A stretch of DNA of 64,000 nucleotides from Minisyncoccota bacterium (GTDB lineage Bacteria > Patescibacteriota > Minisyncoccia > Phycocordibacterales > UBA9973): assembly GCA_041661005.1 (NCBI GenBank), contig JBAZVG010000001.1, positions 114,116 through 178,115 of the forward strand, given 5' to 3'. The position numbers and the translations under genes are program-made. Shown here in pieces: positions 19,977-54,094 of the stretch. The notes beneath the pieces are model-generated. The model saw only the letters and a list, made by a program, of their open reading frames with translations. It had not been told where the DNA came from and did no database searches. Within the stretch, counting starts at the first letter, position 1. Every line of letters starts with the position of its first letter.

Positions 19977-20133
19977 GGAATTAACAGCAATTCTGCAAAA
20001 ACAGTTCAAAAACAGCTCTATGACCTTCCCAGACGAATTAATTGAAGATCTCGGTTTAACATTACTTAATTTAGCAGTTATATCGCTTAAAAGAAGACTT
20101 AAAATCAACAGGCAAAATGACATTGAAAAATAG
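19945..20133 (+). CDS. small hypothetical protein just upstream of the recombinase (possible regulatory/directionality factor)
   Basis: Overlapping ORF 19855..20133 trimmed to an internal Met. A 12-bp perfect inverted repeat hairpin (20195..20243) follows it. Confidence 0.25.
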   Translation: MKPTLTKEASKELTAILQKQFKNSSMTFPDELIEDLGLTLLNLAVISLKRRLKINRQNDIEK

Positions 20134-20247
20134 AAATAATGGTATAATAGGTATGCCAGATCGAAGTAATAATAAAATTATTATTTATAAAAGTGGGGTA
20201 ACAACTACTTCGGTCTGGCGATTGAGGTTAAAGTTGTTACCCCGCTT

Positions 20248-21978
20248 TTGTTAAAAACTATGAAAAAACAAGATGAAAAAATTAAATATGGTGAATACCT
20301 CAGAAAATCTTCCGAAGACGAAGATAGGCAGATTAATTCTATTGAAGATCAGCAACGCGAACTTGATGCAATAGCGTTAAAAGAAAAACTTAATATTGTA
20401 ATTAAATATCCTGGAGAATCTCAAAGTGCCCATCATCCTGGTAGGTCTATTTTTGCAGATGCAATTAAAGATATTGAACTGGGGAAAATAAATGCTCTTT
20501 TTGTCTGGCACGCTAATAGGCTTTCTAGAAATCCAATTGATACGGGAATGATTATTTATCTTATGGACATAGGAAAACTTAAGGAAGTTAAAACAACAAC
20601 TAGAACTTATTACAATACTTCCAGTGATAAACATTATTTAAGCCAGGAACTTAGTAACTCTAAGAAAGATAGCGATGATAAGAGTGAAGTGGTTAAAAGA
20701 GCATTGGAAGGACGCGCTATTCGTGGCCTTCCAAGTGGAGTCTCGAAAGTTGGTTTTCTAAATGACATGACAGAAGAAAAAGGCAATAGAAAATGGATTG
20801 TGGACAAAATTCGTTTTCCTCTCGTTAAACAACTCCTTGAAAGAATGCTAACTGGAAGATATTCTCCGGCACAAATATATAGATATGCAAAAGATGACTT
20901 AAAACTTACAACCACACCGAGAAAAAGAGAAGGTGGCAAACCTGTAGCTTTTTCATATGTTTATACATTATTGAGAGACCCCATTTTTGCAGGTTTCTTC
21001 TCCCATAATGGTAAAAGATACGAATTAGACAAAAGACTCCCTCGCGCTATAACTGAAGAAGAATATTGGAAAATACAGGCAATGCTTGGATCAAAAGGCA
21101 GACCACAACCCTCAAAACATGAAGGCCTGTATAACCATTTTCTATCTTGTGGAGAATGCAAGGGTCGCATGTCTCCCGATTTTAAATTTCAGTTAATATG
21201 TCCTGTCTGTAAATTGAAATTTTCCTGCATAAATATGGATAAATGCCCAAAATGTAAGACCAAAACGAATACAATGACCGATCCAACCTATTGTTCTTAT
21301 GTGTATTATTACTGCATCAATAATAAAAAACATAGATCAGTATGTCCATCTAGTACAATTGAACAAAAGAGAATTGAAACAGCTGTTTATGACAAATTTA
21401 CTAATGAAATCTGCATCAGTAAGGAACTTTCAGATTGGTGTTTGAAGAATCTTTCTATCATCAAAGACACGGAAATTCAAGATGAGTCAGCTATAAAAAC
21501 ATCACTAGATGAACAAGAAATTCAAGTGAAGAAAAAATTAAATAATCTACTTAGTTACAGAATTAAAAAGCAGGATATTACGTCAGAACAAGAAGAAATT
21601 TTCGAGGCTCAAGAGAAAGAATTACAGCAAGAATGGTCCGATATTAAGCAAAGAAAAAATGTCAAAATTGACTGGTATAGTGAAGCTGCCAAAGAATTTA
21701 ATTTAATGACTGAAATAGAAGATACCCTCAAAAATGGCACTCCTGCAGAGAAAAAAGAACTCTTTTATGAATTGCGTTCGAACCTAACTGTTAGCGAGAA
21801 AAACCTTATTGTTATCAACAGAAAATCAATAAATGCCTTCGCAGAATGTATCCTACGTGCTAAATCTGAAAACAGAGCGTTCGAACCTAGAAATAATTTT
21901 CCTAGCTTTACAAACAAAAGCTCAAAAGAAAAAACAGAGGTTTTCGCCTCTGTAATTCCTACTCTGCTCCGGGGGTAG
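20248..21978 (+). CDS. large serine recombinase (resolvase/invertase catalytic domain plus recombinase and zinc-ribbon domains)
   Basis: N-terminal YLRKSSEDEDRQINSIEDQQRE (catalytic Ser/Arg motif). CGECKGRM...CPVCK...CPKCKTK zinc ribbons. Coiled-coil C-terminus. The stop lies inside the tRNA-Asn 3' end. Confidence 0.85.
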   Translation: MLKTMKKQDEKIKYGEYLRKSSEDEDRQINSIEDQQRELDAIALKEKLNIVIKYPGESQSAHHPGRSIFADAIKDIELGKINALFVWHANRLSRNPIDTGMIIYLMDIGKLKEVKTTTRTYYNTSSDKHYLSQELSNSKKDSDDKSEVVKRALEGRAIRGLPSGVSKVGFLNDMTEEKGNRKWIVDKIRFPLVKQLLERMLTGRYSPAQIYRYAKDDLKLTTTPRKREGGKPVAFSYVYTLLRDPIFAGFFSHNGKRYELDKRLPRAITEEEYWKIQAMLGSKGRPQPSKHEGLYNHFLSCGECKGRMSPDFKFQLICPVCKLKFSCINMDKCPKCKTKTNTMTDPTYCSYVYYYCINNKKHRSVCPSSTIEQKRIETAVYDKFTNEICISKELSDWCLKNLSIIKDTEIQDESAIKTSLDEQEIQVKKKLNNLLSYRIKKQDITSEQEEIFEAQEKELQQEWSDIKQRKNVKIDWYSEAAKEFNLMTEIEDTLKNGTPAEKKELFYELRSNLTVSEKNLIVINRKSINAFAECILRAKSENRAFEPRNNFPSFTNKSSKEKTEVFASVIPTLLRG

Positions 21979-22038
21979 GGATCGAACCTACGACCAATCG
22001 CTTAACAGGCGACCGCTCTACCGCTGAGCTACCCCGGA
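21967..22038 (-). tRNA. tRNA-Asn (anticodon GTT)
   Basis: Hand-folded on the minus strand: TCCGGGG-TA-GCTC-AGCGGTA-GAGC-G-GTCGC-CTGTTAA-GCGAT-TGGTC-GTAGG-TTCGATC-CCTAC-CCCCGGA-G. 7/4/5/5-bp stems. No CCA encoded. Confidence 0.85.
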
Positions 22039-27117: not shown

Positions 27118-27462
27118 ATGAAAACACTTGTTGTAAAAAAACCTTGGGGTCAATTTGATCAATTCACGCATAATGAAGTTACAACCGTAAAAGTTCTCTC
27201 AATCAATCCAAACACTTCTTTGAGCTTACAATATCACAATCATCGAGACGAGTTCTGGCGAGTTCTCTCTGGACATCCGGTTTTAACCATTAGTGAAAAG
27301 AAAATTAATGCTAATCCTGGCGATGAGTTTATGATTAAAAAGTTAGAAAAACATCGAATTGAAGCTAAAGATGACGCTGTGCAGATGTTAGAAATATCTT
27401 ATGATGATAATTTTGATGAAAATGATATTATTAGGTTAGAAGATAAATATGGCCGAGTCTAA
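27118..27462 (+). CDS. cupin-fold mannose-6-phosphate isomerase-like protein
   Basis: KPWGQFDQF...LSLQYHNHRDEFWRVLSG (type II PMI cupin signature). Confidence 0.7.
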   Translation: MKTLVVKKPWGQFDQFTHNEVTTVKVLSINPNTSLSLQYHNHRDEFWRVLSGHPVLTISEKKINANPGDEFMIKKLEKHRIEAKDDAVQMLEISYDDNFDENDIIRLEDKYGRV

Positions 27463-28633
27463 AAAGAAAATAAAAATTACTCACTCTCGGAGACTGAACG
27501 GCTCTGGGTCCAGACTAAACAAGTCGGGGAAAATTAATATTGTTGTCAAAAAAAAGATAACAAGAAAAAAACCGATACGCAAGACAAAGAAAAAGGTTTC
27601 TGTTCTTAGTCTTAAAAGATCGGATAAAAATCCTATTATTGAACCAGTTGGTCATAGATACTGGGAATCGAAAGCAACCTTCAATCCTACTGCCATTTAC
27701 CATGATGGTAAGGTGCACATTGTCTATCGAGCAATTGGGGACAGCGATATCTCAGTTTTGGGATATGCAAAAAGTGATGATGGAAATAATATTATTGAAC
27801 ATTCAAAAGAATTGGCTTTCTATCACCATCACAAATTAGCTTTTAAAAAGCCGGACAAAAAAAGCAAGGAAAATATGCCTCCCATTATTTATTCTTCCGG
27901 TGGTGGCTGGGGTGGCGGATGTGAGGACCCACGGCTTACACTTTTAGGCGACCAAGTGTATATGATCTACACGGCTTTTGATGGGTGGGGATCTGTGCGA
28001 ATGGCAATGACCTCCATAAGTTTGGATGATTTTATTTCGAGACGTTGGAATTGGAAACTCCCGGTATTGATTTCTTCTCCCGGACAAATACATAAAAATT
28101 GGGTGCTTTTCCCGGAAAAAATAAAAGGCAAATATGCAATTCTTCACAGTATTTCTCCTAAAATAATGATAAATTATTTTAAATCTTTAGATGAACTCGA
28201 TGGAGATAATTTCATATACAGTGTTCATCAAGGCAGTCCTTTGTGGGGGTCTCGAGACAAGTTTATCCGAGGTGTTGGGCCTTCACCTCTAAAGACAAAA
28301 TATGGCTGGCTAGTTTTATATCATAAAATGGAGAAACATGATTCCCATAGATATAAACTATGGGCAATGATTTTAGACGCAAAAGATCCAACAAAGATTC
28401 TATATAATTCCAATCAACCTATTCTTGAACCAGATGAATGGTATGAAAATGAAGGATATAAGGGAGGGGTGGTGTATTCTTGCGGAGCAGTTATTAAAGA
28501 CGAAAAGTTGTTTGTATATTATGGCGGTGCCGATAAAGTTTCTTGTGTTGCCACGGCTGACCTCGATAAATTTTTGAAAGAGTTGATGTATTCCGGCGGG
28601 GGAGTTGTAAAAAGTAAAAAAATTAAAGCATAG
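27449..28633 (+). CDS. GH130-family glycosidase/phosphorylase with a ~60-aa Lys-rich N-terminal extension
   Basis: FNPTAIYHDGKVHIVYRAIGD...GGCEDPRLT...YTAFDG (GH130/DUF377 motifs). The N-terminus is extremely basic (K/R-rich). Confidence 0.7.
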   Translation: MAESKKKIKITHSRRLNGSGSRLNKSGKINIVVKKKITRKKPIRKTKKKVSVLSLKRSDKNPIIEPVGHRYWESKATFNPTAIYHDGKVHIVYRAIGDSDISVLGYAKSDDGNNIIEHSKELAFYHHHKLAFKKPDKKSKENMPPIIYSSGGGWGGGCEDPRLTLLGDQVYMIYTAFDGWGSVRMAMTSISLDDFISRRWNWKLPVLISSPGQIHKNWVLFPEKIKGKYAILHSISPKIMINYFKSLDELDGDNFIYSVHQGSPLWGSRDKFIRGVGPSPLKTKYGWLVLYHKMEKHDSHRYKLWAMILDAKDPTKILYNSNQPILEPDEWYENEGYKGGVVYSCGAVIKDEKLFVYYGGADKVSCVATADLDKFLKELMYSGGGVVKSKKIKA

Positions 28634-28636
28634 TCT

Positions 28637-30592
28637 ATGTTTGTTGTAAAAAGATATCATCATAACCCAATTCTAGTTCCAGATAAAGACCATTACTGGG
28701 AGGCATTTGCGACTTTTAATATGAGCGTTATTAAAGCGGGCAAAACGTTTTATGGCGTTTATCGCGCTATCTCCGCGGTAGACAGGATGCGCACACCCGA
28801 ACGGATTTCAATAATAGGCATTGGAAAAAGCAAAGACGCATTAAATTTTGACGAGCGGACGCCTTTTATAGTTCCCACGGAGGACTGGGAAAAATATGGT
28901 TGCGAAGATCCGCGTGTTACTTATTTTGAAGGGAATTATTACGTATTTTACACGGCTCTTTCCAAGTATCCGTTCGAAGCGGGCGGAATCAAAGTCGCGG
29001 TCGCTGTTTCAAAAGATTTAAAAAAAATTAAGGAACGGCACTTGGTGACGCCCTTTAACGCAAAGGCAATGACTCTTTTCCCGGAACGCATCAATGGGAA
29101 GATCACAGTGGTTCTCTCGGTTAACACAGACATGCCTCCTACAAAAACTGCGATAGCGCAATTCGATAAAATCGAAGAATTATGGGATTCAAAATTCTGG
29201 GAGAAGTGGTATAAAGAGATAGACAAACATATTTTTGATTTAAAAAGAACTCCTTATGATCATATCGAAGTCGGAGCTCCGCCTGTCAAAACTCCCAAGG
29301 GTTGGCTTTTAGTATATTCGCATATTCAAAATTACTTTTCTTCCCCTGAAAATCTAGATCGTATATTTGGGGTTGAAGTGGCTGTGCTGGATTTTGATAA
29401 TCCACTCAAGATTTTGGGACGAACCAGCGGTCCGATATTTTCTCCTCGTGAATCCTATGAACTTTTGGGTTATGTTCCTGATGTAGTTTTTCCAATGGGC
29501 GCAATTTTGAAGAAATCTACTCGCCAACTTGCAGGCGGGGATATGCTTTATGTTTATTATGGAGCATCAGATATGACAGGTTGTGTAGCCCATGTGAGCT
29601 TGAATGATCTTCTAGGCACCATAATGGAAGATGCGGGCTCGCGTTGGCATTTCAAACGTTTCGAAAAAAATCCAATAATTGCGCCGAACAAACAACATTC
29701 TTGGGAAGCCAGAGCTACTTTTAATCCTGCTGTTTTGAGAATACACAACAAGACGCACATATTGTATCGAACTCTCTCAGATGACAATACGTCTTTTATC
29801 GGTTATGCGTCTACCAAAGACGGTGTGACTATTGATGAAAGATTGGGAGAGCCTATATATGGACCGAGAGAAGATTTTGAATCAAAAAAAATAGCTGGGG
29901 GGAATTCAGGCTGTGAGGATCCGCGACTTACAAAAATTGGGAAAACTATTTATATGTGCTATACAGCATTCGACGGCATTAGCCCGCCTCGAGTCGCCAT
30001 AACTTATATTTCAGAAAAAAACTTTTTACAACAAAAATGGGATTGGGAAAAACCCGTTTTGATTACTCCCGCTGGTTTTGACGATAAAGATACTTGCATT
30101 TTTTCTGAGAAAATAAAAGGTCAGTATTTTTTCTTACATCGTGTTGGTAGTGAAATATGCGGAGATTATCTAAAGTCGCTTGATTTCAAGAAAGAGACTG
30201 TCAAAAAATGTATTCGAATAATCGGACCAAGAATCAATAGCTGGGATAGTTCCAAAGTTGGCATCTCTGCGCCACCGATGAAGACAAAACATGGATGGTT
30301 GCTTCTTTATCATGGCGTTTCAAAAAGTCACAACACTTATCGTATTGGAGCAGTTCTGCTCGATCTAAAGGATCCGACCATAGTCCTCGCGCGCACTACT
30401 GACCCGATTTTTGAACCAAAAGAGCCGTATGAAAAAACAGGGATAGTTAACAATGTTGTCTTTCCATGTGGAATGGCTGTAAAAGATGGATTGCTCTATA
30501 TTTACTATGGCGGGGCGGATATGGTGGTAGGAGTTGCGACCATAGAACTCGATGTTGTCTTGAGAGCTCTTATGAGAAATGTAAAAAAATAG
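28637..30592 (+). CDS. tandem double GH130-domain protein (651 aa)
   Basis: Two complete GH130 units, each with FNxxV...YR, GCEDPR and YTAFDG motifs (at about aa 1-320 and 330-651). Confidence 0.7.
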   Translation: MFVVKRYHHNPILVPDKDHYWEAFATFNMSVIKAGKTFYGVYRAISAVDRMRTPERISIIGIGKSKDALNFDERTPFIVPTEDWEKYGCEDPRVTYFEGNYYVFYTALSKYPFEAGGIKVAVAVSKDLKKIKERHLVTPFNAKAMTLFPERINGKITVVLSVNTDMPPTKTAIAQFDKIEELWDSKFWEKWYKEIDKHIFDLKRTPYDHIEVGAPPVKTPKGWLLVYSHIQNYFSSPENLDRIFGVEVAVLDFDNPLKILGRTSGPIFSPRESYELLGYVPDVVFPMGAILKKSTRQLAGGDMLYVYYGASDMTGCVAHVSLNDLLGTIMEDAGSRWHFKRFEKNPIIAPNKQHSWEARATFNPAVLRIHNKTHILYRTLSDDNTSFIGYASTKDGVTIDERLGEPIYGPREDFESKKIAGGNSGCEDPRLTKIGKTIYMCYTAFDGISPPRVAITYISEKNFLQQKWDWEKPVLITPAGFDDKDTCIFSEKIKGQYFFLHRVGSEICGDYLKSLDFKKETVKKCIRIIGPRINSWDSSKVGISAPPMKTKHGWLLLYHGVSKSHNTYRIGAVLLDLKDPTIVLARTTDPIFEPKEPYEKTGIVNNVVFPCGMAVKDGLLYIYYGGADMVVGVATIELDVVLRALMRNVKK

Positions 30593-46294: not shown

Positions 46295-46415
46295 TTAAGG
46301 GGTTTGGCGAGCGACGGCGAGCCAATTTCAGGATTTTTTAAGCTTCAAAAAATCCGTACCGGCAAAAAGATTATTTTGAGAATTTTACTTAGATGTTTTT
46401 TATGCTAAAATAACC
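46295..46415 (+). promoter_or_regulatory. conserved upstream element (GC hairpin plus GGATTTTTT-N7-AAAAAATCC inverted repeat) and extended -10 for grpE
   Basis: The identical 34-mer CAGGATTTTTTAAGCTTCAAAAAATCCGTACCGG (46329..46362) also occurs, inverted, at 55986..56019. Flanks are conserved over about 90 nt. TGCTAAAAT lies 6 nt before the grpE ATG. Confidence 0.55.
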
Positions 46416-46417
46416 TT

Positions 46418-47050
46418 ATGTCAGACGAAGAAACCAAAAAACCTGAAGAAAATAAACCCCTCGAGGTTGCTCGGGACGATTCTACTGAATCGGATGATTC
46501 AGAAGTTGTGGATGTTGTCTTTAACGAAGACGGGGAGGAAGATCTCAAGAAAACTCTTAAGAAACTAAGGGAAGATTTGAAAGTATGCAAAAAAGAAAAA
46601 GAAGAATATCTAACTGGCTGGCAAAAAGAACGGGCGGAGTTTGCTAATTATAGAAAAGGGGAAGATGATCGAAAAGCTATGTTTTCAGAATCAATGCGCG
46701 AACGCATACTGACCAGATTTCTGACTGTATCGGATAGTTTCAACATGGCTTTTGCCAATAAAGAGGCGTGGGAAAAGGTAGATGAAAATTGGAGAAAAGG
46801 CGTAGAATATATTTATGGACAGATGAATACTGTGTTTGAAGAATATGGGGTAAAAGAAATAGGAGAGGTCAATGAAACATTTGATCCAAATATTCATCAG
46901 TCCATGGAAGTTACACCGACTGACAAAAAAGAAAATGACCATAAGGTCTCGACTGTAATCCAAAAGGGATACAAGCTCGGCGAACGTGTCATACGTCCGG
47001 CGAGAGTGAATGTTTATGAATACAGAGAAGAACATAAGTCTGAAAAATAA
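46418..47050 (+). CDS. grpE: nucleotide exchange factor GrpE
   Basis: WQKERAEFANYRKG (like the GrpE QAEFENYRKR segment). C-terminal FDPNIHQSMEV...QKGYKLGERVIRPARVNV. Confidence 0.8.
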   Translation: MSDEETKKPEENKPLEVARDDSTESDDSEVVDVVFNEDGEEDLKKTLKKLREDLKVCKKEKEEYLTGWQKERAEFANYRKGEDDRKAMFSESMRERILTRFLTVSDSFNMAFANKEAWEKVDENWRKGVEYIYGQMNTVFEEYGVKEIGEVNETFDPNIHQSMEVTPTDKKENDHKVSTVIQKGYKLGERVIRPARVNVYEYREEHKSEK

Positions 47051-48689
47051 TATCTGTGAGCATTGCAAACAGAATTTCTCGATAGGAGAAGGAGAATTTT
47101 CTTTATATCAAAAAGTTGGCATCGAATTGCCGACTTTGTGCTTTTTCTGTCGAATAAAATTACATTTTTCTTTTTGGTATTTCGGAAAATTTAGGAAAAG
47201 TAAATCAGATCTTTCGGGGGAAAGTTTGATTACTGTTTTGCCGGAAAAAAATAAATATCCTATATATACTTTAAATGAATGGCATGGTGATAAGTGGAAT
47301 CCGATGGATTACGGAATGGATTACAATCCAGACACTTCGTTTTTAGAACAAATTCAAAATTTACAGGAAAAAGTCCCTCATCCTCACCAAAATGGATCTA
47401 AAAATACAAACTGTGATTATTGCGATGATGTTTGGAATTCTAAAAATTGCTATTTATCTCGCTCGATGGAGAAATGTGAAGATTTGTTTTATTCATACCG
47501 TAATTTAGGAGTTAAGAATTCCATAGATATGAATGTTTGTTTTGATTCAGAAAAATGCTATGACTGCGGAGACTGCCACCATTCATACAAACTTTTTTAC
47601 TCAAGACACTCACGAGATTGCATAGATTCAAGTTTTTTATACGACTGTCGTAATTGCCAAAATTGTTTTATGTCTTGGAATCTTCGAAATAAACAGTACT
47701 GTATAGAAAACAAGCAATATACTAAAGAAGAATATGAAGAAAAACTAAAATCATATAATCTAGAATCCTATAAATCAATTCAGTTTTTTAAAAAACGTTT
47801 TGAAGAAATAGCACAGAAAGAAGTAGTTCATAGGCAAAATTTCAATTTTAAAAATTACAATTCAGACGGAAATTATCTTTTTGATACGAAAAATTGTCAC
47901 AATTGTAATACAGTCAATGAATCCGAAGATTGTCGAAATTGCGTGAGAGGAATTAGTGAAAAATCTAATATTGATGCGAATGGCGTTTGGTATTCTGAAT
48001 TGGCGGGCAATTGCGTTGGCTGTGTTAATGCCTACGCTATTAAATACAGCATGTGGTCTTCCTCTCGTTATTCTGAATATTTAGATTTATGTATTGAATG
48101 CGAATATTGCTTTGGTTGCGTCGGCTTAAAGAAAAAGAAATATTGTATTCTAAACAAGCAATATGACAAACAAGAATATGAAACTCTGAAAAATAAAATC
48201 ATTGGAGATATGAAAAATAGCGGAGAATACGGCAAGTTTCTGCCTTATTCTATGAGCGCCGGACCTTTTAATTTTTCTACCAGTTTTCTTTATTTTCCGG
48301 AAACCAAAAAAGAAGATATCTTAAAACTCGGCGGTTATTGGGAGGATGTTAACGAAAGTCATATAGACGGAATGCTTACAAGTGAACTGCCTGATGATAT
48401 AAAAGATGTACCAGATATCATTATCACTCAAGCGCTTATTTGTCCGGAAACTGGCTGGCGGTTTAATATTGCTCAAAATGAGCTTATTTTTTACAAGGAA
48501 AACAATATTCCACTTCCACGATATCATTTTGATGTTCGCACAAAAAATAGTTTAAAATATTTAACTATTTTGCAATCCTATCCATATATCTGTTTCTATT
48601 GCAAGAAAGATATAGAAGCATATTATTTACCGGAGTGGGGATATGAGAAAATTGCCTGCGAAGAATGTTATAAACAAAATATAGCTTGA
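47010..48689 (+). CDS. cysteine-rich repeat protein, paralog 1 of 4 (559 aa), with N- and C-terminal zinc-ribbon modules
   Basis: N-terminal CEHCKQNFSI...LCFFCR. Many CxxCxxC(F/V)GC repeats. C-terminal NELIFYKENNIPLPR..C..CK. The start overlaps grpE's end in another frame, so the true start is uncertain. Confidence 0.7.
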   Translation: MFMNTEKNISLKNNICEHCKQNFSIGEGEFSLYQKVGIELPTLCFFCRIKLHFSFWYFGKFRKSKSDLSGESLITVLPEKNKYPIYTLNEWHGDKWNPMDYGMDYNPDTSFLEQIQNLQEKVPHPHQNGSKNTNCDYCDDVWNSKNCYLSRSMEKCEDLFYSYRNLGVKNSIDMNVCFDSEKCYDCGDCHHSYKLFYSRHSRDCIDSSFLYDCRNCQNCFMSWNLRNKQYCIENKQYTKEEYEEKLKSYNLESYKSIQFFKKRFEEIAQKEVVHRQNFNFKNYNSDGNYLFDTKNCHNCNTVNESEDCRNCVRGISEKSNIDANGVWYSELAGNCVGCVNAYAIKYSMWSSSRYSEYLDLCIECEYCFGCVGLKKKKYCILNKQYDKQEYETLKNKIIGDMKNSGEYGKFLPYSMSAGPFNFSTSFLYFPETKKEDILKLGGYWEDVNESHIDGMLTSELPDDIKDVPDIIITQALICPETGWRFNIAQNELIFYKENNIPLPRYHFDVRTKNSLKYLTILQSYPYICFYCKKDIEAYYLPEWGYEKIACEECYKQNIA

Positions 48690-48749
48690 GGATTTTAATT
48701 TATACCTGCCCGCAATGCTACGCATAGCGTTGCAGGCGGGTGAAAAAAT

Positions 48750-50465
48750 ATGAACAAAGACTGTAAGAATTGTAAGACAACTTTTGAAATAACCAATGAA
48801 GATATGGGTTTTTACGAACGTATTAAAGTTCCACCGCCGACGTGGTGTCCGATATGTCGCCAACTTCGTCGTTATGCATGGAGGAACGAACGAGTTTTGT
48901 ATAGACGAAATTGCGACCTTTGCGGGAAGAGCACAGTGACCATTTATTCTCCGAACAAGCCATACAAAGTTTACTGCGTAGATTGCTGGTGGGGAGATGA
49001 TTGGGATTTTTCTTCATACGGACGGGATTTTGATTTTTCCCGATCTTTTTTTGAGCAATTTGCTGAATTACAGCGTGAAGTGCCTCGCATGGCGTTCTTG
49101 AACAAGAGAAGCGTTAATTCTGAATACACAAACCATTCTGGAGATAATAAGAATGTTTATCTTTCTTTTACAACTTTTTACAGCGAGAATGTTATGTATA
49201 GCACTTGGATAAGGACGTCGCAAGATTGTATGGATTGCAGTTTTATTTATGATAAAGGGGAACGTCTGTATGAAACGATGGATTCTCGTTATTCGTATCA
49301 ATGTCAATATGGGATCTTTTTAAAAGATTGTTCAACTTGTTATTATTGTTATGATTGTCATGGGTGCAATGAATGTTTTATGTCTTCGAATTTACGCAAC
49401 AAAAGTTATGTTTTTAAAAATAAACAATACTCTCGTGAAGAATATCTAAAAAAGAAAAAAGAATATGAATTATGTTCTTTTGTGACGAGAGAAGGATTGA
49501 ATAAAGAATTTAAAGATTTATTGGAACAAAGCGCTATTCATCGTTATGTTGTCAGCGAAAGGAGTATTAATTCCAGTGGATCTTTGCTCTATGATTGCAA
49601 AAACGTCATTGATTCTTTTGAGATGGATAGAAGCGAGGATTGTAAATATGTCTATGGAGGTATTGAAACAAAAGATTGCATGGATCTATATCATGTGGGT
49701 TGGAATACAGAACTTTGTTACGAGTGTCATGGATGTACGCGTCTTTCCAACTGTCAATTTTGTCACTTATGTTATGACGGTATGAATATTTTTTATTCCG
49801 ATACTTGTCAGAATAGTCAAAATCTTTTTGGCTGTGTAAGCGTGAAAAAAGGCGAGTATATGATTTTCAATAAAAAATATAATAAAACTGATTATGAAGT
49901 TTTGAAAGCAAAAATTATTGAACATATGAAAAAGACGGGGGAATATGGAGAATTCTTTCCACCAGAAATCGCTCCGGTGTATTACAATGAGACACAAGGT
50001 AACCTCTATATGCCTATGAAAAAAGAAGAAATTTTAGCAAAAGGCTGGCATTGGGAAGACAATATCCCCGGAACTTTTGGCAAGGAGACAATCTCAAGTG
50101 CAGATATTCCCGACAGAATAGAAGATGTGCCAGATAGTTATTTGACTGAAATTTTTTCTTGTATGGATTGCTCTAAAAATTACAACATAACCCAAAATGA
50201 GCTTATTTTTTATAGGAAAGAAAATATTCCATTTCCAAGACGATGTCCAAATTGTCGTTATGGAAGAAGATTTGACCTCCGACCGATGAGAAAACTTTGG
50301 CACCGTAAATGTATGTGTGACCCGACTTCGCAAAGCTCTGACGGGCGTGGTAAAAATCACTTTCATGGAGAGAAAAAATGTGAAGTTGAATTTGACACCT
50401 GTTATGCGCCGGATAGGTCGGAAAAAGTGTACTGTGAGACCTGTTATAACAAAGAAGTTTATTAA
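48750..50465 (+). CDS. cysteine-rich repeat protein, paralog 2 (571 aa)
   Basis: CKNCKTTFEITNEDMGFYERIKVPPPTWCPICR. Central CYYCYDCHGCNEC. C-terminal NELIFYRKENIPFPRRCPNCR...VYCETCYNKEVY. Confidence 0.8.
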   Translation: MNKDCKNCKTTFEITNEDMGFYERIKVPPPTWCPICRQLRRYAWRNERVLYRRNCDLCGKSTVTIYSPNKPYKVYCVDCWWGDDWDFSSYGRDFDFSRSFFEQFAELQREVPRMAFLNKRSVNSEYTNHSGDNKNVYLSFTTFYSENVMYSTWIRTSQDCMDCSFIYDKGERLYETMDSRYSYQCQYGIFLKDCSTCYYCYDCHGCNECFMSSNLRNKSYVFKNKQYSREEYLKKKKEYELCSFVTREGLNKEFKDLLEQSAIHRYVVSERSINSSGSLLYDCKNVIDSFEMDRSEDCKYVYGGIETKDCMDLYHVGWNTELCYECHGCTRLSNCQFCHLCYDGMNIFYSDTCQNSQNLFGCVSVKKGEYMIFNKKYNKTDYEVLKAKIIEHMKKTGEYGEFFPPEIAPVYYNETQGNLYMPMKKEEILAKGWHWEDNIPGTFGKETISSADIPDRIEDVPDSYLTEIFSCMDCSKNYNITQNELIFYRKENIPFPRRCPNCRYGRRFDLRPMRKLWHRKCMCDPTSQSSDGRGKNHFHGEKKCEVEFDTCYAPDRSEKVYCETCYNKEVY

Positions 50466-50517
50466 AATGTTTACTTTATCCAACTAAATTACTTTACTTA
50501 ACTAAAGTAGACAAAAA

Positions 50518-52284
50518 ATGGAATATAAGAATGAAAATAGAATATGTCAAAATTGCAAGAAAGACTTCACCATCGAGCCGGAGGATTTTAATTTTTACGA
50601 AAAGATGAAAGTTCCTCCACCGACTTTTTGTCCACTTTGTCGGGCAGAAAGAAGAGCGACTTTTAGAAATGAGAGAAAACTTTTTAAGGTCAAGGATGTC
50701 TTGACCGGGAGAGGTATCTTCTCACTTTTTCCTGATGAGGCTGGAAACAAATCTACCACGGAGGAAGAGTGGTTCAGTGATAATTTTGATGCTATGGAGT
50801 ATGCTCGGGATTATGATTTTTCAAAAAACTTCTTTGAACAACTGTTTGAATTAAAAAAAGAAGTGCCGGTTTTTTCTTTGAGGGTAGAATTTATGGTGAA
50901 TAGTCCATATAGCGCAAATGCGACTGCTCTTAAAAACTGCTACCTATGTTTTAATTCTAATACTTCTGAAGATTGCATGTATGGTAATGCCACTGATTTT
51001 AGCAAAGATTGTATCGACAATTCTCATATCAGTCAATCGGAGCGATGTTATGAATGTTTTTGGTTGAGACATTGTTACCAATGTTATTTTACAATAATGT
51101 GTGGAGATTCACATAATATGTGGTTTTCTCGAGATTGTCATGGGTGTAATGATTGTTTTGGGTGTATAAATTTAACAAAAGCGTCGTATTGTATTTTTAA
51201 CAAGAAATATTCTAAAGAGGATTATCAAAATAAAATTGCAAAGATGGGCTTAAATACAATTTCTGGATTAAAAAAGGCGCGAGAAAAGTCCAGAATTTTT
51301 TGGCAGAGTCATATAAGACGATATCAACAAGGTACAAAAAATTTAAACTCAACTGGTTCGTATGTAACAGATTGCAAAAATGTGAATGACAGTTTTTTAA
51401 TACGAGAAGGGGAAAATATGAAATACTGCCAGTATTTACAAGTTCCGAGAAACAAAGATTGTTATGATGCTTTTGCTTGGGGAGCAAACATGGAAATGCA
51501 TTATGAGACTTGTCTTTCTGGTGGAAATACTTTCAATATGAAATTTTGCGATAATTGTTGGCCAAATTGTAGAAACCTTGAGTATTGTGCGCACATGTTC
51601 AGTTCTTCTGATTGTTTTGGTTGTGTTGGATTAAAGAAAAAACAATATTGTATTTTCAACAAGCAGTATGAAAAAGAAAAATATTTTGAGATGGTTGAAA
51701 AAATAAAAAAACACATGGATGAAGTACCCTATTATGATAAAAAAGGCAATATGTATAAATATGGGGAATTTTTCCCGATCGAACATTCACAATTTGGATA
51801 TAATAATTCGACCGCTATTCAGTATTTTTCAATGACAAAAGAGAAAGCAAAAGAAAACGGTTATTTATGGATTGATGTTCCTCGTGGTGAATATAAAATT
51901 ACAAAAAAAGCATCAGAACTTGTGGAATCAATTGACGGAGTTACTGATCAAATTTTAAAAGAAGTTGTCGAATGTGAAAATTGTAAAAATCCGTATCGTA
52001 TTTTAGAAAACGAATTTATATTTTACAAAAAAGAGAATCTTCCACTTCCGACAATGTGTCATGAATGTAGATTTGAGAGAAGAATCGCGGATAGACTGAA
52101 ATTTGAATTATATGAAAGATCTTGCATGTGTACTGGGAAAACTGATAACACTGGAATTTATGAAAATACTACAAAGCATATTCATGGTAATGAACTCTGT
52201 GGGGAAGAATTTAAAACAGGATATTCTCCCGACCGCCCAGAAATAGTTTACTGCGAGAAATGTTATCAGCAGGAGGTTTACTAA
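50518..52284 (+). CDS. cysteine-rich repeat protein, paralog 3 (588 aa)
   Basis: MEYKNENRICQNCKKDFTIEPEDFNFYEKMKVPPPTFCP... ends SPDRPEIVYCEKCYQQEVY. Confidence 0.8.
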   Translation: MEYKNENRICQNCKKDFTIEPEDFNFYEKMKVPPPTFCPLCRAERRATFRNERKLFKVKDVLTGRGIFSLFPDEAGNKSTTEEEWFSDNFDAMEYARDYDFSKNFFEQLFELKKEVPVFSLRVEFMVNSPYSANATALKNCYLCFNSNTSEDCMYGNATDFSKDCIDNSHISQSERCYECFWLRHCYQCYFTIMCGDSHNMWFSRDCHGCNDCFGCINLTKASYCIFNKKYSKEDYQNKIAKMGLNTISGLKKAREKSRIFWQSHIRRYQQGTKNLNSTGSYVTDCKNVNDSFLIREGENMKYCQYLQVPRNKDCYDAFAWGANMEMHYETCLSGGNTFNMKFCDNCWPNCRNLEYCAHMFSSSDCFGCVGLKKKQYCIFNKQYEKEKYFEMVEKIKKHMDEVPYYDKKGNMYKYGEFFPIEHSQFGYNNSTAIQYFSMTKEKAKENGYLWIDVPRGEYKITKKASELVESIDGVTDQILKEVVECENCKNPYRILENEFIFYKKENLPLPTMCHECRFERRIADRLKFELYERSCMCTGKTDNTGIYENTTKHIHGNELCGEEFKTGYSPDRPEIVYCEKCYQQEVY

Positions 52285-52336
52285 AATGTTTACTTTATCC
52301 AACTAAATTACTTTACTTAACTAAAGTAGATAAAAA

Positions 52337-54094
52337 ATGGAATATAAGAATGAAAATAGAATATGTCAAAACTGCAAGAAAGATTTCACCATCGAGCCGG
52401 AGGATTTTAATTTTTACGAAAAGATGAAAGTTCCTCCACCGACTTTTTGTCCGGAGTGCAGATTGCAACGCAGAATGGTCTGGCGTAATGATTGGCACTT
52501 ATTTAAGAAAAAAGATGCACGAACAGGTGAAGAGATTTTCTCCTTTTTACCCGAAGAAAGTCCTGCAAAAATTTATGACAGGGATTACTGGATTTCTGAC
52601 GCCTGGGATCCTATGAAACATGGTCGTGATTATAATTTTTCTAGACCATTTTTTGAGCAATTTAAAGAATTACTCTATGAAGTGCCCCTTCCAGCTCATT
52701 CCATGTTTGATATAGTTAATTGTCAGTATTGTACTAATGCTAATAATATTAAAGGCTGTTATCTGGTTCGAGGAGCTTCTTTTACAGAAGATTCCGCTTA
52801 TCTTATTTGGGATCAGGAATCAAAGCAATGTCTTGATAGTCATATGACTAATAAATGTGAATTGAGTTATGGAAATGTTGACACTTCCACTTGTTATAGA
52901 ACTTTTTTCTCAGTTGATTGTGAAAGTTCTCAAGAATTAATTTTATGTAAAGATTGTGTAGGATGTAATAGTTGCATCGCTTCAATTAGTTTACGAAATA
53001 AATCGTATTGTATTTTTAATGTTCAATATACGAGAGAAGAATATTTAGAAAAATTGAAATCTTTTCACCTAGGTTCAGACAAAGCTTTTCAGAATTTTAA
53101 AAATAAAGCATATAAACATTGGTTGAAATATCCGCAGAAGTTTATTCATAGTCGTCAGAATGTAAATGTTTCCGGAGATTATATTTATGAATCCAAAAAT
53201 GCCCGTGGTTGTTATAGGGTAAGGGAATTAGAAGACTGTAAGTTTGTACAGAATATTTTGATTGGTCCAGCTAAAGATTGTTATGACTATGCGAATTTTG
53301 GCGACAATGCAGAACTTATTTATGAATCGTTAATTGTTGGAAGGGGAGTATCTAATGTCAAATTCTCCACTCAAGCAGTTTCTAATATAAAAAATCTCAC
53401 ATATTGCGTTTTTTGTTTTCCTTCGAATTCAGATTTGTTTGGTTGTGTTTCTTTGCGTAATAAACAGTATTGTATTTTTAATAAACAATACACAAAAGAG
53501 GAATACGAAAAACTTATTCCAAAAATTATTAAACACATGAGTGAAATGCCATTTATTGATAAAAATGGGAGGGTCTATAAATATGGAGAATACTTTCCAA
53601 GTGAATTAACCTATCTTCCTTATAGAGCAACTGCTTCTTATGAATGGTTTCCATTGGATGAGCAAGAGGCAAAGGAAAAAGGATTTTTGTGGTATGAAAC
53701 CGCAAAACAAAATCATAAAATTACTTTAAAAAATAAAGACATTCCAGATGATATTAAAGATGTTGATGAAAGTATCCTTAACCAAATCATTGAATGTGTC
53801 CACCAAGAATCTTGCGAGCATGAATGTACCGGCGCTTTTCGGGTAATCAAAATGGAATTTGATTTTTTGAAGAGAATGAATATTCCATTACCTCGTCTAT
53901 GCACAAATTGTCGTCATTATGAACGTCTTGTGCTTAGGAATCCGCCGAGGTTTTATAATCGAGAGTGTATGTGTAATAAAAACAACCATACACATCATCA
54001 AGGAAAATGCACTACAGAATTTGAAACTTCATATGCTCCAGATAGGCCAGAAATAGTCTACTGCGAGAAATGCTACCAGCAGGAGGTTTATTAG
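52337..54094 (+). CDS. cysteine-rich repeat protein, paralog 4 (585 aa)
   Basis: First 39 aa and last 19 aa identical to paralog 3. Central region diverged. Confidence 0.8.
   Translation: MEYKNENRICQNCKKDFTIEPEDFNFYEKMKVPPPTFCPECRLQRRMVWRNDWHLFKKKDARTGEEIFSFLPEESPAKIYDRDYWISDAWDPMKHGRDYNFSRPFFEQFKELLYEVPLPAHSMFDIVNCQYCTNANNIKGCYLVRGASFTEDSAYLIWDQESKQCLDSHMTNKCELSYGNVDTSTCYRTFFSVDCESSQELILCKDCVGCNSCIASISLRNKSYCIFNVQYTREEYLEKLKSFHLGSDKAFQNFKNKAYKHWLKYPQKFIHSRQNVNVSGDYIYESKNARGCYRVRELEDCKFVQNILIGPAKDCYDYANFGDNAELIYESLIVGRGVSNVKFSTQAVSNIKNLTYCVFCFPSNSDLFGCVSLRNKQYCIFNKQYTKEEYEKLIPKIIKHMSEMPFIDKNGRVYKYGEYFPSELTYLPYRATASYEWFPLDEQEAKEKGFLWYETAKQNHKITLKNKDIPDDIKDVDESILNQIIECVHQESCEHECTGAFRVIKMEFDFLKRMNIPLPRLCTNCRHYERLVLRNPPRFYNRECMCNKNNHTHHQGKCTTEFETSYAPDRPEIVYCEKCYQQEVY

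What the first reader, a model, noticed from the sequence alone, without database searches (positions are those of the whole stretch)
47010..54094. Tandem array of four large paralogous cysteine-rich zinc-ribbon proteins immediately downstream of grpE
Four consecutive genes (559, 571, 588 and 585 aa) share one architecture. The N-terminal module is C..C.xxF.I...D..FY....VPPPT.CP.CR followed by RNERxLYxRxCDxCGK...VYC..CWW.D.WD and YxRDYDFS..FFEQ. The central region has about 15-20 short repeats built on CxxCxxCxGC / C.DC.GCN.C with recurring NLRNK.YCIFNKQY.KEEY units. The C-terminal module mirrors the N-terminus (NELIFYKKENIPLPR.C..CR.xRR...R...L..R.CMC ... PDRPEIVYCEKCYQQEVY). With roughly 60-70 Cys per protein, no signal peptide and no catalytic motif I recognise, they are most likely multi-zinc (or Fe-S) binding proteins. 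Four tandem copies of such a large gene is extravagant in a streamlined genome. The position right after grpE (instead of dnaK/dnaJ) and the Cys-rich repeats recall the DnaJ zinc-finger domain, but the match is not close.
Basis: seen in the sequence. Interest (0 to 1): 0.8.

Follow-up and report, generated by a model that had tools for sequence, protein, structure and literature searches.

The report
Zinc-finger-capped beta-solenoid paralog array
Four neighbouring genes after grpE encode an unannotated family of zinc-finger-capped beta-solenoid proteins, about as conserved as ribosomal proteins, that forms tandem arrays across Paceibacteria (ultra-small CPR bacteria), often mixed in with the DnaK/DnaJ/GrpE chaperone genes and orphan VirD4-like ATPases, so it may mark an undescribed cellular machine.

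Summary
The four ORFs are real and sit exactly where stated. They are full-length paralogs, 31-45% identical. The Cys count is wrong: 33-39 per protein, not 60-70.

The terminal Cys quartets are kept or lost as sets, as metal sites would be. The solenoid Cys mostly swap with Ser or Val, as core residues would.

The family is large (5050 50%-identity clusters). All named records are Patescibacteria of the Paceibacteria type. It lies in same-strand arrays of up to 8 full-length ancient paralogs. Orthologs are about as conserved as ribosomal proteins.

In many genomes the arrays are interleaved with grpE, dnaK, dnaJ and two VirD4/TraD-like ATPases. One of these ATPases carries the same zinc finger.

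Function is unknown. My best inference is non-enzymatic scaffold or adaptor subunits that work with Hsp70 and these ATPases. There is no detectable homology to DnaJ.

The parts
46384..46411 (+). sigma-70-like promoter candidate (TTTACT-16-TAAAAT with TG) in the 141-nt S9-grpE spacer. It is the likely start of a grpE-A-B-C-D transcription unit (inferred).
   Evidence: (consensus scan only)
46418..47050 (+). grpE, the nucleotide-exchange factor of DnaK. Its 3' end overlaps the start of paralog A.
   Evidence: Pfam GrpE E=4.9e-38. 70-73% identical to the grpE of L001, L018, L020 and L026, each of which is also followed directly by a family gene.
47010..48689 (+). Paralog A (559 aa; NCBI starts it at 47016, giving 557 aa, MFA6076633.1). 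This is the 'after-grpE' orthogroup. It keeps N-site I and a plain CxxC-x18-CxxC at the C-terminus but has lost C-site I.
   Evidence: Orthologs are 56-81% identical and sit directly after grpE in L001, L018 and L026. In L020 the gene after grpE is not an A ortholog (30%).
48703..48742 (+). Strong hairpin in the A-B spacer, with no U tract after it. Role unknown (RNA stability or processing?).
   Evidence: -26.9 kcal/mol, z=-4.4, 0 of 200 shuffles fold as well
48750..50465 (+). Paralog B (571 aa, MFA6076634.1). It has the fullest zinc set: N-site I, N-site II (C55/C58/C76/C79, nt 48912-48986), C-site I and C-site II.
   Evidence: (zf_Tbcl_2 aa 48-80, E=1.1e-3). AF2 model pLDDT 88.7, pTM 0.87.
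50518..52284 (+). Paralog C (588 aa, MFA6076635.1). It is the type with the most database relatives. In other genomes this type usually sits just after the long VirD4-like ATPase.
   Evidence: AF2 model pLDDT 87.7, pTM 0.89.
50545..50787 (+). Paralog C, N-terminal treble-clef zinc module (aa 10-90). C10/C13/C38/C41 are followed by an Arg-rich helix.
   Evidence: BFVD 'zinc-ribbon domain' phage proteins superpose at 0.8-1.4 A over 42-47 columns.
50902..51225 (+). Paralog C, beta-solenoid 1 (aa 129-236). It has 8-9 coils of 12 residues with inward C/S at coil positions 1, 4, 7 and 10, and ends in the conserved cap ...SYCIFNKKYSKEDY.
51325..51684 (+). Paralog C, beta-solenoid 2 (aa 270-389). It is homologous to solenoid 1 and ends in FGCVGLKKKQYCIFNKQYEKEKY.
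   Evidence: hhalign probability 99.5%. The AF2 B model shows the EEEE--E--E-- periodicity.
51973..52281 (+). Paralog C, C-terminal double zinc module (aa 486-588). It comprises C486/C489/C514/C517 and C536(C538..H554xH556)C561/C579/C582.
52337..54094 (+). Paralog D (585 aa, MFA6076636.1). It is the most conserved of the four: 89.6% identical to its ortholog in L001.
50463..50633 (+). Copy 1 of a ~170-nt near-identical tract: the stop codon of B, the 52-nt spacer and the first 116 nt of C.
52282..52452 (+). Copy 2 of the tract: the stop codon of C, the spacer and the first 116 nt of D. About 98% identical to copy 1, although C and D are only ~44% identical as proteins. This looks like a recent gene-conversion or recombination footprint.

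Best explanation
**What it is (shown)**
- The four genes are ancient, non-redundant paralogs of a large, unannotated protein family. All named records that carry it are Patescibacteria of the Paceibacteria type.
- Each ~68-kDa cytoplasmic protein is a rigid, apparently non-enzymatic body made of two narrow four-sided beta-solenoids. The coils have 12 residues, with a small Cys/Ser side chain pointing inward every third residue.
- The body is capped at both ends by homologous treble-clef Zn(Cys)4 finger modules. There are 2 to 4 such sites per protein, plus a possible lumenal Cys4 ring.

**How it most likely works (inferred)**
- The paralogs are co-expressed from same-strand arrays. They act as distinct subunits or adaptors of a cytoplasmic multi-protein assembly.
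- They are functionally tied to the DnaK-DnaJ-GrpE system and to two orphan VirD4/TraD-like hexameric ATPases. The genes for all of these are interleaved with the arrays in many genomes.
- The zinc fingers are docking modules. The same CxxC-x17-CxxC finger sits on the long ATPase. The solenoids provide a stiff spacer or interaction surface.
- In this genome only the grpE-proximal part of that supercluster lies in the window.
For: **Architecture**
- Alignment and hhalign of sub-blocks.
- Two independent AF2 models: pLDDT 87.7 / pTM 0.89 and pLDDT 88.7 / pTM 0.87.
- In the central region Cys occur almost only at lags that are multiples of 3. Across 196 family members, C+S frequency is 0.50 in one register against 0.09 and 0.03 in the other two.

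**Zinc sites**
- The quartets are 87-100% conserved and lost all-or-none (phi 0.93-1.0). Solenoid Cys are not coupled (phi <=0.43).
- zf_Tbcl and zf_Tbcl_2 are the only recurrent Pfam hits in 54 diverse members.

**Cytoplasmic location**
- No TM segment or signal-like N-terminus.

**Ancient, constrained paralogs**
- 0 of 164 proteins has an in-locus paralog above 60% identity. The best hit lies in another genome for 157 of 164.
- Window versus L001: A 81%, B 75%, D 90% identical. For comparison S4 is 82%, RpoA 86%, S9 87% and GrpE 73%.

**Context**
- In the 81 loci, family genes within a locus are always on one strand.
- A VirD4-like ATPase is present in 31 loci and directly adjacent in 18. 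dnaJ is in 14 loci, dnaK in 13 and grpE in 5 (all 5 adjacent).
- A recurrent order is grpE-[F]n-PaaX<-dnaK-x-ATPaseL-[F]n-ATPaseS-dnaJ.
- ATPaseL carries TIGR04272 / zf_Tbcl_2 above cut-off.

**Literature**
- 5,713 VirD4-like T4CP homologues were found in Patescibacteria, and only 148 lie near virB4, so they are unexplained orphans (PMC12102498).
Against: - There is no direct evidence of any physical interaction, of co-transcription or of metal content.
- Roughly half of the loci (43 of 81) show neither chaperone genes nor the ATPase within 10 kb. One single copy sits inside a purine operon (L005).
- Synteny among related genomes is not independent evidence.
- No CIRCE heat-shock operator is present in the window.
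- High conservation and paralog non-redundancy are also compatible with several independent functions rather than one complex.
- I could not inspect model coordinates, so the finger geometry and the 'Cys4 ring' are inferred from sequence register only.
Confidence: 0.4

Rival explanations
1. Nucleic-acid-binding proteins. The Arg-rich treble-clef fingers bind DNA or RNA. The proteins work with the DNA-translocase-like (VirD4/TraD/HerA/FtsK-type) ATPases in DNA uptake, segregation or processing, or else in RNA or ribosome-related tasks.
For: - Each first finger runs into a conserved basic helix (CRxxRRxxxRNER).
- The partner ATPases are most similar to DNA-pumping coupling proteins: TraD, VirD4, CedD, HerA.
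- The array in the window follows the S13-S11-S4-rpoA-L17-L13-S9 cluster.
Against: - Overall pI is 5.9-6.6, not basic.
- No known nucleic-acid-binding family matches.
- The ribosomal neighbourhood comes from grpE's position and is absent in most loci.
Confidence: 0.2
2. Translocated cargo. The paralogs are substrates that the orphan VirD4-like coupling ATPases, with the 450-aa membrane protein often found upstream, export or inject into host cells. DnaK/DnaJ/GrpE would act as secretion chaperones. The logic resembles T4SS effectors, or T7SS substrate arrays next to FtsK-like ATPases.
For: - Tight, same-strand adjacency to two T4CP-like ATPases in 18 loci, and a membrane protein upstream in 7.
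- No Sec signal would be needed for such a route.
- Episymbiotic lifestyle of cultured Paceibacteria (PMC10936435).
Against: - Orthologs are about as conserved as ribosomal proteins. That is unusual for effectors or surface proteins facing varied hosts.
- Zinc-stabilised rigid folds are poor translocation substrates.
- The ATPases are mostly not near virB4 (PMC12102498).
- Arrays also occur without any ATPase nearby.
Confidence: 0.13
3. Metal or redox proteins. The Cys-lined solenoid lumen stores or buffers Zn, Cu or Fe, or carries Fe-S clusters, or acts as a thiol redox buffer or holdase in the manner of Hsp33 or the DnaJ zinc centre.
For: - 33-39 Cys per protein.
- One fully conserved turn of four inward Cys (C207/C210/C213/C216 all Cys in 105 of 196 members), extended to six in B.
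- CutA1 ('divalent ion tolerance') lies next to arrays in 7 loci.
- Chaperone gene context.
Against: - Most solenoid Cys are only 20-75% conserved, swap with Ser/Val/Ile and are not coupled.
- 6% Cys is far below metallothioneins.
- No Fer4, SPASM or rubredoxin profile hit.
Confidence: 0.07
4. Divergent DnaJ-type co-chaperones by homology, replacing dnaJ next to grpE.
For: Position after grpE and CxxC-rich sequence.
Against: - No J domain or HPD motif, no DnaJ_CXXCXGXG and no DnaJ_C hit, even at E<=1.
- A bona fide dnaJ with its own zinc-finger region is present in the same superclusters of related genomes.
Confidence: 0.03
5. Artefact: a mis-assembled repeat, or pseudogenes.
For: None, beyond the ~170-nt near-identical tract shared by the B/C and C/D junctions.
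Against: - The ORFs are intact.
- Identical proteins are on an 813-kb contig in NCBI and JGI.
- There are thousands of full-length homologs from independent assemblies.
- Paralogs differ throughout their length.
Confidence: 0.01

Closest known systems
Pfam zf_Tbcl (PF13451) and zf_Tbcl_2 (PF23477; NCBIfam TIGR04272, CxxC-x17-CxxC): 'probable treble clef' zinc fingers of unknown function
   Same: - The N- and C-terminal modules have the same CxxC...F.I...D..FY....P.P..C..CR and CxxCG...(F/Y).P....P.(V/I)YC..C patterns.
- 9 and 10 of 54 family members hit these HMMs, with best E values of 2e-7 and 2e-5.
- Phage 'zinc-ribbon domain' proteins superpose at about 1 A.
   Different: - Those families are short domains, either stand-alone or appended to other proteins.
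- Here two pairs of them cap a ~400-residue double solenoid.
- The window proteins themselves score below the Pfam cut-offs: 19.1 bits against 27, and 14.9 against 24.
- The domains have no known function, so the match explains little.
Narrow 12-residue Cys-rich beta-helix of the Tenebrio molitor antifreeze protein (1ezg), and other antifreeze or ice-binding solenoids
   Same: - 12-residue coils with small inward residues every third position. TmAFP has TCTxSxxCxxAx (my own knowledge); here the pattern is C/S at coil positions 1, 4, 7 and 10.
   Different: - TmAFP is a secreted 9-kDa protein braced by disulfides, with a TxT ice-binding face.
- These proteins are cytoplasmic and ~68 kDa, have no TxT ladder, their Cys are exchangeable with Ser/Val, and they carry zinc-finger caps.
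Curli subunit CsgA beta-solenoid (8c50), and left-handed beta-helix acyltransferases / gamma-carbonic anhydrases
   Different: - No sequence relationship: 7% identity, and Foldseek E>=0.26.
- Different coil length.
- No amyloid secretion context, no hexapeptide motif and no active-site residues.
DnaJ (Hsp40) zinc-finger co-chaperones
   Same: Cys4 zinc centres, and genes embedded among grpE, dnaK and dnaJ.
   Different: - No J domain, no CXXCXGXG repeats and no C-terminal substrate-binding domains.
- Different finger type.
- A canonical dnaJ coexists in the same clusters.
Substrate or adaptor gene arrays beside FtsK/VirD4-type ATPases (T4SS coupling-protein clients; T7SS Esx/PE-PPE arrays). 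This is an analogy only.
   Same: Tandem paralogs, tightly linked and co-oriented with VirD4/TraD-like P-loop ATPases.
   Different: - No virB4 or channel genes were seen in these loci.
- The proteins are large, zinc-stabilised and extremely conserved.
- No secretion signal is known.

Membership tests
DnaJ/Hsp40 | J domain with HPD motif (Pfam DnaJ PF00226) | tested here: not met
   No hit at E<=1 in any of the four proteins, nor in 54 family members at E<=0.01.
DnaJ/Hsp40 | Four CXXCXGXG repeats forming two zinc centres (PF00684) | tested here: not met
   No PF00684 hit. The Cys motifs are CxxC...CxxC knuckles 17-24 residues apart.
zf_Tbcl / zf_Tbcl_2 (PF13451 / PF23477 / TIGR04272) treble-clef fingers | Profile match above the curated cut-off | tested here: inconclusive
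   Window proteins are sub-threshold: B scores 19.1 bits against 27, D scores 14.9 against 24. Other family members reach E=2e-7 and 2e-5. The linked ATPase passes TIGR04272 (47.8 bits against 36).
zf_Tbcl / zf_Tbcl_2 (PF13451 / PF23477 / TIGR04272) treble-clef fingers | Two CxxC knuckles at the family spacing (CxxC-x17-CxxC), conserved as a set | tested here: met
   B has C55/C58-x17-C76/C79. Family-wide, the quartets are present or absent together, with phi 0.93-1.0.
Radical SAM / SPASM maturases | CxxxCxxC radical-SAM core and a SPASM/Fer4 auxiliary-cluster domain | tested here: not met
   No Radical_SAM, SPASM or Fer4 hit in Pfam or NCBIfam.
Ferredoxin-type Fe-S proteins | CxxCxxCxxxCP cluster motif / Fer4 profile | tested here: not met
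   CxxCxxCxxC occurs once (C207-C216), without the xxxCP ending and without a profile hit. Actual metal content cannot be tested here.
Metallothioneins | Small protein, 15-30% Cys, no regular fold | tested here: not met
   559-588 aa, 5.6-6.8% Cys, and a confidently predicted fold.
Insect antifreeze beta-helix (TmAFP type) | 12-residue coils with inward Cys/Ser/Ala every third residue | tested here: met
Insect antifreeze beta-helix (TmAFP type) | TxT ice-binding ladder, secretion signal, obligate cross-coil disulfide pairs, sequence or fold homology | tested here: not met
   [not shown]
Known anti-phage defence systems (PADLOC) | Profile match of the proteins or their partners to a defined system | tested here: not met
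   No PADLOC hit for A-D. The ATPases give only generic HerA/mad8 P-loop similarity. Conservation at the level of ribosomal proteins also argues against this.
T4SS / T7SS secreted substrates | Demonstrated ATPase-dependent translocation; a recognised secretion signal | not testable with these tools
   Only gene adjacency to VirD4-like ATPases is seen.

The most novel reading that the evidence does not exclude
The paralogs, the two orphan VirD4/TraD-like ATPases (one sharing their zinc finger) and the DnaK-DnaJ-GrpE genes together encode a previously undescribed machine that is found across Paceibacteria. It would be a hetero-oligomeric assembly of zinc-finger-capped beta-solenoid subunits, built or driven by hexameric ATPases and Hsp70. 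This would also explain why thousands of T4CP homologues in Patescibacteria are not linked to any type IV secretion system.
Probability: 0.3. Interest if true: 0.85.

Novelty: categorically new. Interest (0 to 1): 0.72.

Why it matters
Paceibacteria are among the most abundant and least understood bacteria, with genomes of about 0.6-1 Mb in which nearly every gene should count. This family takes up 7 kb in the window and as much as 14 kb elsewhere. It is kept about as constant as ribosomal proteins, has no annotation in any source I could query, and is wired into the Hsp70 operon.

If it is a structural or adaptor component working with the orphan VirD4-like ATPases, two things follow. Those ATPases, noted as unexplained in PMC12102498, gain a testable role. 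A major lineage-specific cell-biological system in CPR bacteria also comes into view. The fold itself, a cytoplasmic TmAFP-like Cys/Ser-cored 12-residue solenoid capped by treble-clef fingers, has no solved counterpart.

Tried and rejected
**Searches that found nothing useful**
- Pfam, NCBIfam, PHROGs and PADLOC scans of the four proteins gave only sub-threshold finger hits and one PHROG of unknown function (phrog_15341, E~1e-6, on the solenoid module).
- PDB sequence and profile searches found nothing better than E=0.3, a LIM-like match.
- Foldseek against PDB found nothing below E=0.26.
- BFVD matched only the finger.
- afdb50 was not available.
- Phage origin is rejected: tblastn against INPHARED found nothing, and IMG/VR gave one marginal contig-end hit.
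- A CIRCE heat-shock operator search found 0 matches.
- Rfam found only the tRNA-Asn.
- Five literature searches found no description of the family.

**Readings I rejected**
- Recent tandem duplication or diversifying expansion: no in-locus pair exceeds 60% identity.
- All central Cys as metal ligands or disulfides: there is no covariation among them.
- Defence island: the genes are too conserved and there is no PADLOC system match.

**What I could not do**
- Inspect model coordinates.
- Run multimer predictions.
- Survey whole genomes for total copy number.
- Locate dnaK, dnaJ or the ATPases in the source genome outside the window.

Full report
**1. The observation**

ORF listing confirms four consecutive + strand genes at exactly the stated coordinates. 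I call them A, B, C and D.
- A: 47010-48689, 559 aa.
- B: 48750-50465, 571 aa.
- C: 50518-52284, 588 aa.
- D: 52337-54094, 585 aa.

The gene before them (46418-47050) is grpE (Pfam GrpE, E=4.9e-38). It overlaps A by 41 nt. Upstream lies the S13-S11-S4-rpoA-L17-L13-S9 cluster. Downstream, on the other strand, are RmuC and an ExoX-like exonuclease. No dnaK or dnaJ is in the window.

The four proteins align over their whole length: A is 32-33% identical to the others, and B, C and D are about 38-45% identical to one another. They have no TM segment or signal-like N-terminus, pI 5.9-6.6, and about 15% aromatic residues.

- There are 33-39 Cys per protein, not 60-70.
- The second N-terminal finger (CDLCGK...VYCVDCWW) exists only in B.

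The proteins are on record as MFA6076633.1-MFA6076636.1, all named 'hypothetical protein'. They come from an 813,355-bp contig of a Candidatus Paceibacterota MAG.

**2. Anatomy**

Profile-profile comparison of sub-blocks shows a nested duplication.
- The N-terminal ~80 residues are homologous to the C-terminal module (probability 98.7%).
- The centre consists of two homologous ~105-residue modules (probability 99.5%). Each ends in L(R/K)NKxYCIFNKQYxKEEY followed by a helix.

AF2 models are confident and predict one rigid body.
- C, with a 120-sequence alignment: pLDDT 87.7, pTM 0.89.
- B, with a 54-sequence alignment: pLDDT 88.7, pTM 0.87.
- In the model of B, the second central module has the DSSP signature EEEE--E--E--, which is a 12-residue coil.

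The sequence shows the same periodicity.
- In C, residues 141-236 stack as eight 12-mers of the form C[YMI]x[C/G/N]xxxxxSx[D/N].
- In all four proteins, central-region Cys-Cys spacings are almost exclusively multiples of 3 (z up to 7.5, and 0-2 counts at other lags).
- Across 196 family members, Cys+Ser frequency in solenoid 1 is 0.50 in one register against 0.09 and 0.03 in the other two. It is 0.70, 0.50, 0.31 and 0.51 at coil positions 1, 4, 7 and 10.

I read this as a narrow solenoid with four inward-facing positions per 12-residue turn and a Cys/Ser core. The four-sided geometry is my inference from this register; I could not inspect the coordinates. The inward pattern is the same as in the Tenebrio antifreeze helix (my own knowledge of TCTxSxxCxxAx).

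**3. Which cysteines are ligands?**

I used 196 full-length members collected from 81 loci and numbered positions as in C.
- N-site I (C10/C13/C38/C41) is 96-97% conserved.
- C-site I (C486/489/514/517) is all-Cys in 168 of 196 members and is lost as a set (phi 0.93-0.95).
- C-site II (C536...C561/C579/C582) is 99-100% conserved. 115 of 196 members carry an optional CxC...HxH insertion.
- N-site II is all-Cys in 82 of 196 members; positions 63, 81 and 84 are kept or lost together (phi 0.99-1.0), while position 60 is Cys in 120 members.

That is the behaviour expected of Zn(Cys)4 sites.

The solenoid Cys behave differently. They are 20-75% conserved, are replaced by Ser/Val/Ile/Thr, and are barely coupled (phi <=0.43). 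They are core residues.

The exception is C207/C210/C213/C216. These are four consecutive inward positions, which is one full turn. All four are Cys in 105 of 196 members, and each is 77-96% conserved. This could be a lumenal metal site (inference).

Expected canonical zinc-site counts in the window are A 2, B 4, C 3 and D 3; the optional CxC...HxH insertion in B, C and D could add one more.

**4. Database identity**

- Pfam, NCBIfam and PADLOC give nothing significant. There are only sub-threshold treble-clef finger hits (zf_Tbcl_2, zf_Tbcl, TIGR04272).
- Among 54 diverse members, these two finger families are the only recurrent hits (10 and 9 members).
- phrog_15341, of unknown function, weakly matches the solenoid module.
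- PDB sequence and profile searches find nothing.
- Foldseek against PDB finds nothing below E=0.26.
- BFVD matches only the finger, to phage 'zinc-ribbon domain' proteins.
- All sources name the proteins hypothetical or uncharacterised.
- Five literature searches found no description.

**5. Distribution and evolution**

The family is very large.
- More than 6000 90%-identity clusters were hit in a capped search.
- 5050 50%-identity clusters have E<=1e-3, and 2202 have E<=1e-30. The top 150 are 520-612 aa.
- At least 590 stretches occur in GTDB species representatives. All named ones are Patescibacteria of the Paceibacteria type (Nomura-, Staskawicz-, Lipton-, Jorgensen-, Giovannoni- and Sungiibacteria). 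A number of records are labelled 'uncultured Candidatus Saccharibacteria' and one is labelled Gammaproteobacteria; I could not verify these labels.
- The family is essentially absent from phage collections.

My own ORF and HMM survey of 81 loci shows the following.
- Family genes within a locus always share a strand.
- 50 loci have at least 2 full-length copies within about 20 kb, and the maximum is 8.

The arrays are not recent expansions.
- No protein has an in-locus paralog above 60% identity (0 of 164). The median best in-locus identity is 43%.
- For 157 of 164 proteins the closest relative is in another genome.

Orthologs are very constrained. Window versus L001:

| Protein | Identity |
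|---|---|
| A | 81% |
| B | 75% |
| D | 90% |
| S13 | 90% |
| S4 | 82% |
| RpoA | 86% |
| S9 | 87% |
| GrpE | 73% |

Array composition does change between genera. C has no ortholog in the L001 array. In the window, a ~170-nt tract (spacer plus the first 116 nt of the gene) is about 98% identical between the B/C and C/D junctions. This is a recombination or gene-conversion footprint.

**6. Context**

Unbiased clustering of neighbours gave these most frequent partners.

| Partner | Loci (of 81) |
|---|---|
| VirD4/TraD/HerA-like P-loop ATPase (two size classes, ~490 aa and ~700 aa) | 31, directly adjacent in 18 |
| DnaJ | 14 |
| DnaK | 13 |
| PaaX_M-like regulator | 8 |
| CutA1 | 7 |
| Membrane protein, 196 aa | 7 |
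| Membrane protein, ~450 aa | 7 |
| GrpE | 5, all directly adjacent |

- A recurrent co-directional order is grpE-[F]n-(PaaX<)-dnaK-x-ATPaseL-[F]n-ATPaseS-dnaJ-([F])-mem196, where [F] is a family gene. It is seen in L018, L016, L027, L081, L019, L007, L008, L026 and L001.
- L001 has five paralogs between grpE and dnaK.
- ATPaseL carries a CxxC-x17-CxxC finger (PF23477 E=2.8e-11; TIGR04272 47.8 bits against a cut-off of 36). Its motif (VPFKPEPGRPVYCKDC) mirrors the family's C-site II (YSPDRPEIVYCEKC).
- The window holds only the grpE-proximal segment, followed by a synteny break.
- 43 of 81 loci show neither partner within 10 kb. One single copy sits inside a purine operon.
- PMC12102498 reports 5,713 VirD4-like T4CP homologues in Patescibacteria, of which only 148 lie near virB4. 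These ATPases are recognised orphans.

**7. Interpretation**

Shown:
- a cytoplasmic, zinc-finger-capped double beta-solenoid family;
- ancient, non-redundant paralogs under purifying selection about as strong as that on ribosomal proteins;
- recurrent tight linkage to Hsp70-system genes and to orphan T4CP-like ATPases that share the finger.

Inferred, with confidence about 0.4: the paralogs are non-enzymatic scaffold or adaptor subunits of a multi-protein assembly that works with, or is built by, DnaK/DnaJ/GrpE and the ATPases. The fingers would serve as docking modules.

Whole-length conservation of each paralog, together with deep divergence between paralogs, is the pattern seen in hetero-oligomers such as CCT or proteasome rings. 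That is an analogy, not evidence.

Rivals and their confidences:
- nucleic-acid binding with DNA-translocase-like ATPases (0.2);
- exported cargo of the ATPases (0.13);
- metal or redox function (0.07);
- DnaJ homology (0.03, effectively refuted);
- artefact (0.01).

**8. Verdict**

The 'multi-zinc' reading is right for the termini and mostly wrong for the repeats. The grpE link is conserved and meaningful, but it is not homology to DnaJ.

The family has no characterised relative and no solved structural counterpart. It is a strong candidate for a lineage-defining, unexplored system in CPR bacteria.

Noticed in passing
window 50463-50633 and 52282-52452: A ~170-nt tract (stop codon, identical 52-nt spacer and the first 116 nt of the next gene) is about 98% identical between the B/C and C/D junctions. 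As a result C and D share an identical 39-residue N-terminus, although they are only ~44% identical overall. This is a gene-conversion or recombination footprint. It may explain how array composition changes between genera.
   Followed up: partly
window 48703-48742: A strong hairpin in the A-B spacer (-26.9 kcal/mol, z=-4.4, 0 of 200 shuffles as stable), with no following U tract and no Rfam match. The B-C and C-D spacers lack it.
   Followed up: partly
window 17895-22038: An AAA_25 (RepA/DnaB-like) ATPase (17895-19976) and a 576-aa serine recombinase (20248-21978) abut tRNA-Asn (21966-22038, minus strand). This is probably an integrated mobile element at the tRNA.
   Followed up: no
window 27449-30592: Two adjacent GH130 (mannoside phosphorylase-like) paralogs of 394 and 651 aa. 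The longer one has an extra ~350-residue N-terminal region.
   Followed up: no
L007, L008, L012, L016, L018, L019, L027, L039, L054, L076, L081 and others (for example L018 7801-9987 and 15078-16616): Orphan VirD4/TraD/HerA-like ATPases in two size classes bracket the family arrays. The long class carries a CxxC-x17-CxxC finger and a long low-complexity tail. A ~450-aa protein with an N-terminal TM region often precedes them. None of these has a specific family assignment.
   Followed up: partly
L001 18669-19223(-), L016 3017-3562(-), L018 3939-4511(-), L026, L027, L081: A ~180-aa PaaX_M-domain (Cas2-like) putative regulator is encoded divergently just upstream of dnaK in these genomes, where hrcA would usually be expected. 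No CIRCE element was found in the window. It may be the local regulator of the chaperone and array cluster.
   Followed up: no
L039, L048, L053, L054, L070, L075, L076: CutA1 ('divalent ion tolerance') genes sit directly next to family arrays in 7 loci. This is a possible hint of a metal connection.
   Followed up: no
L005 10001-11767: A single family copy (66% identical to C) is inserted between purL and purQ in a purine biosynthesis operon of another Paceibacteria genome. The family is therefore not always linked to chaperone or ATPase genes.
   Followed up: no
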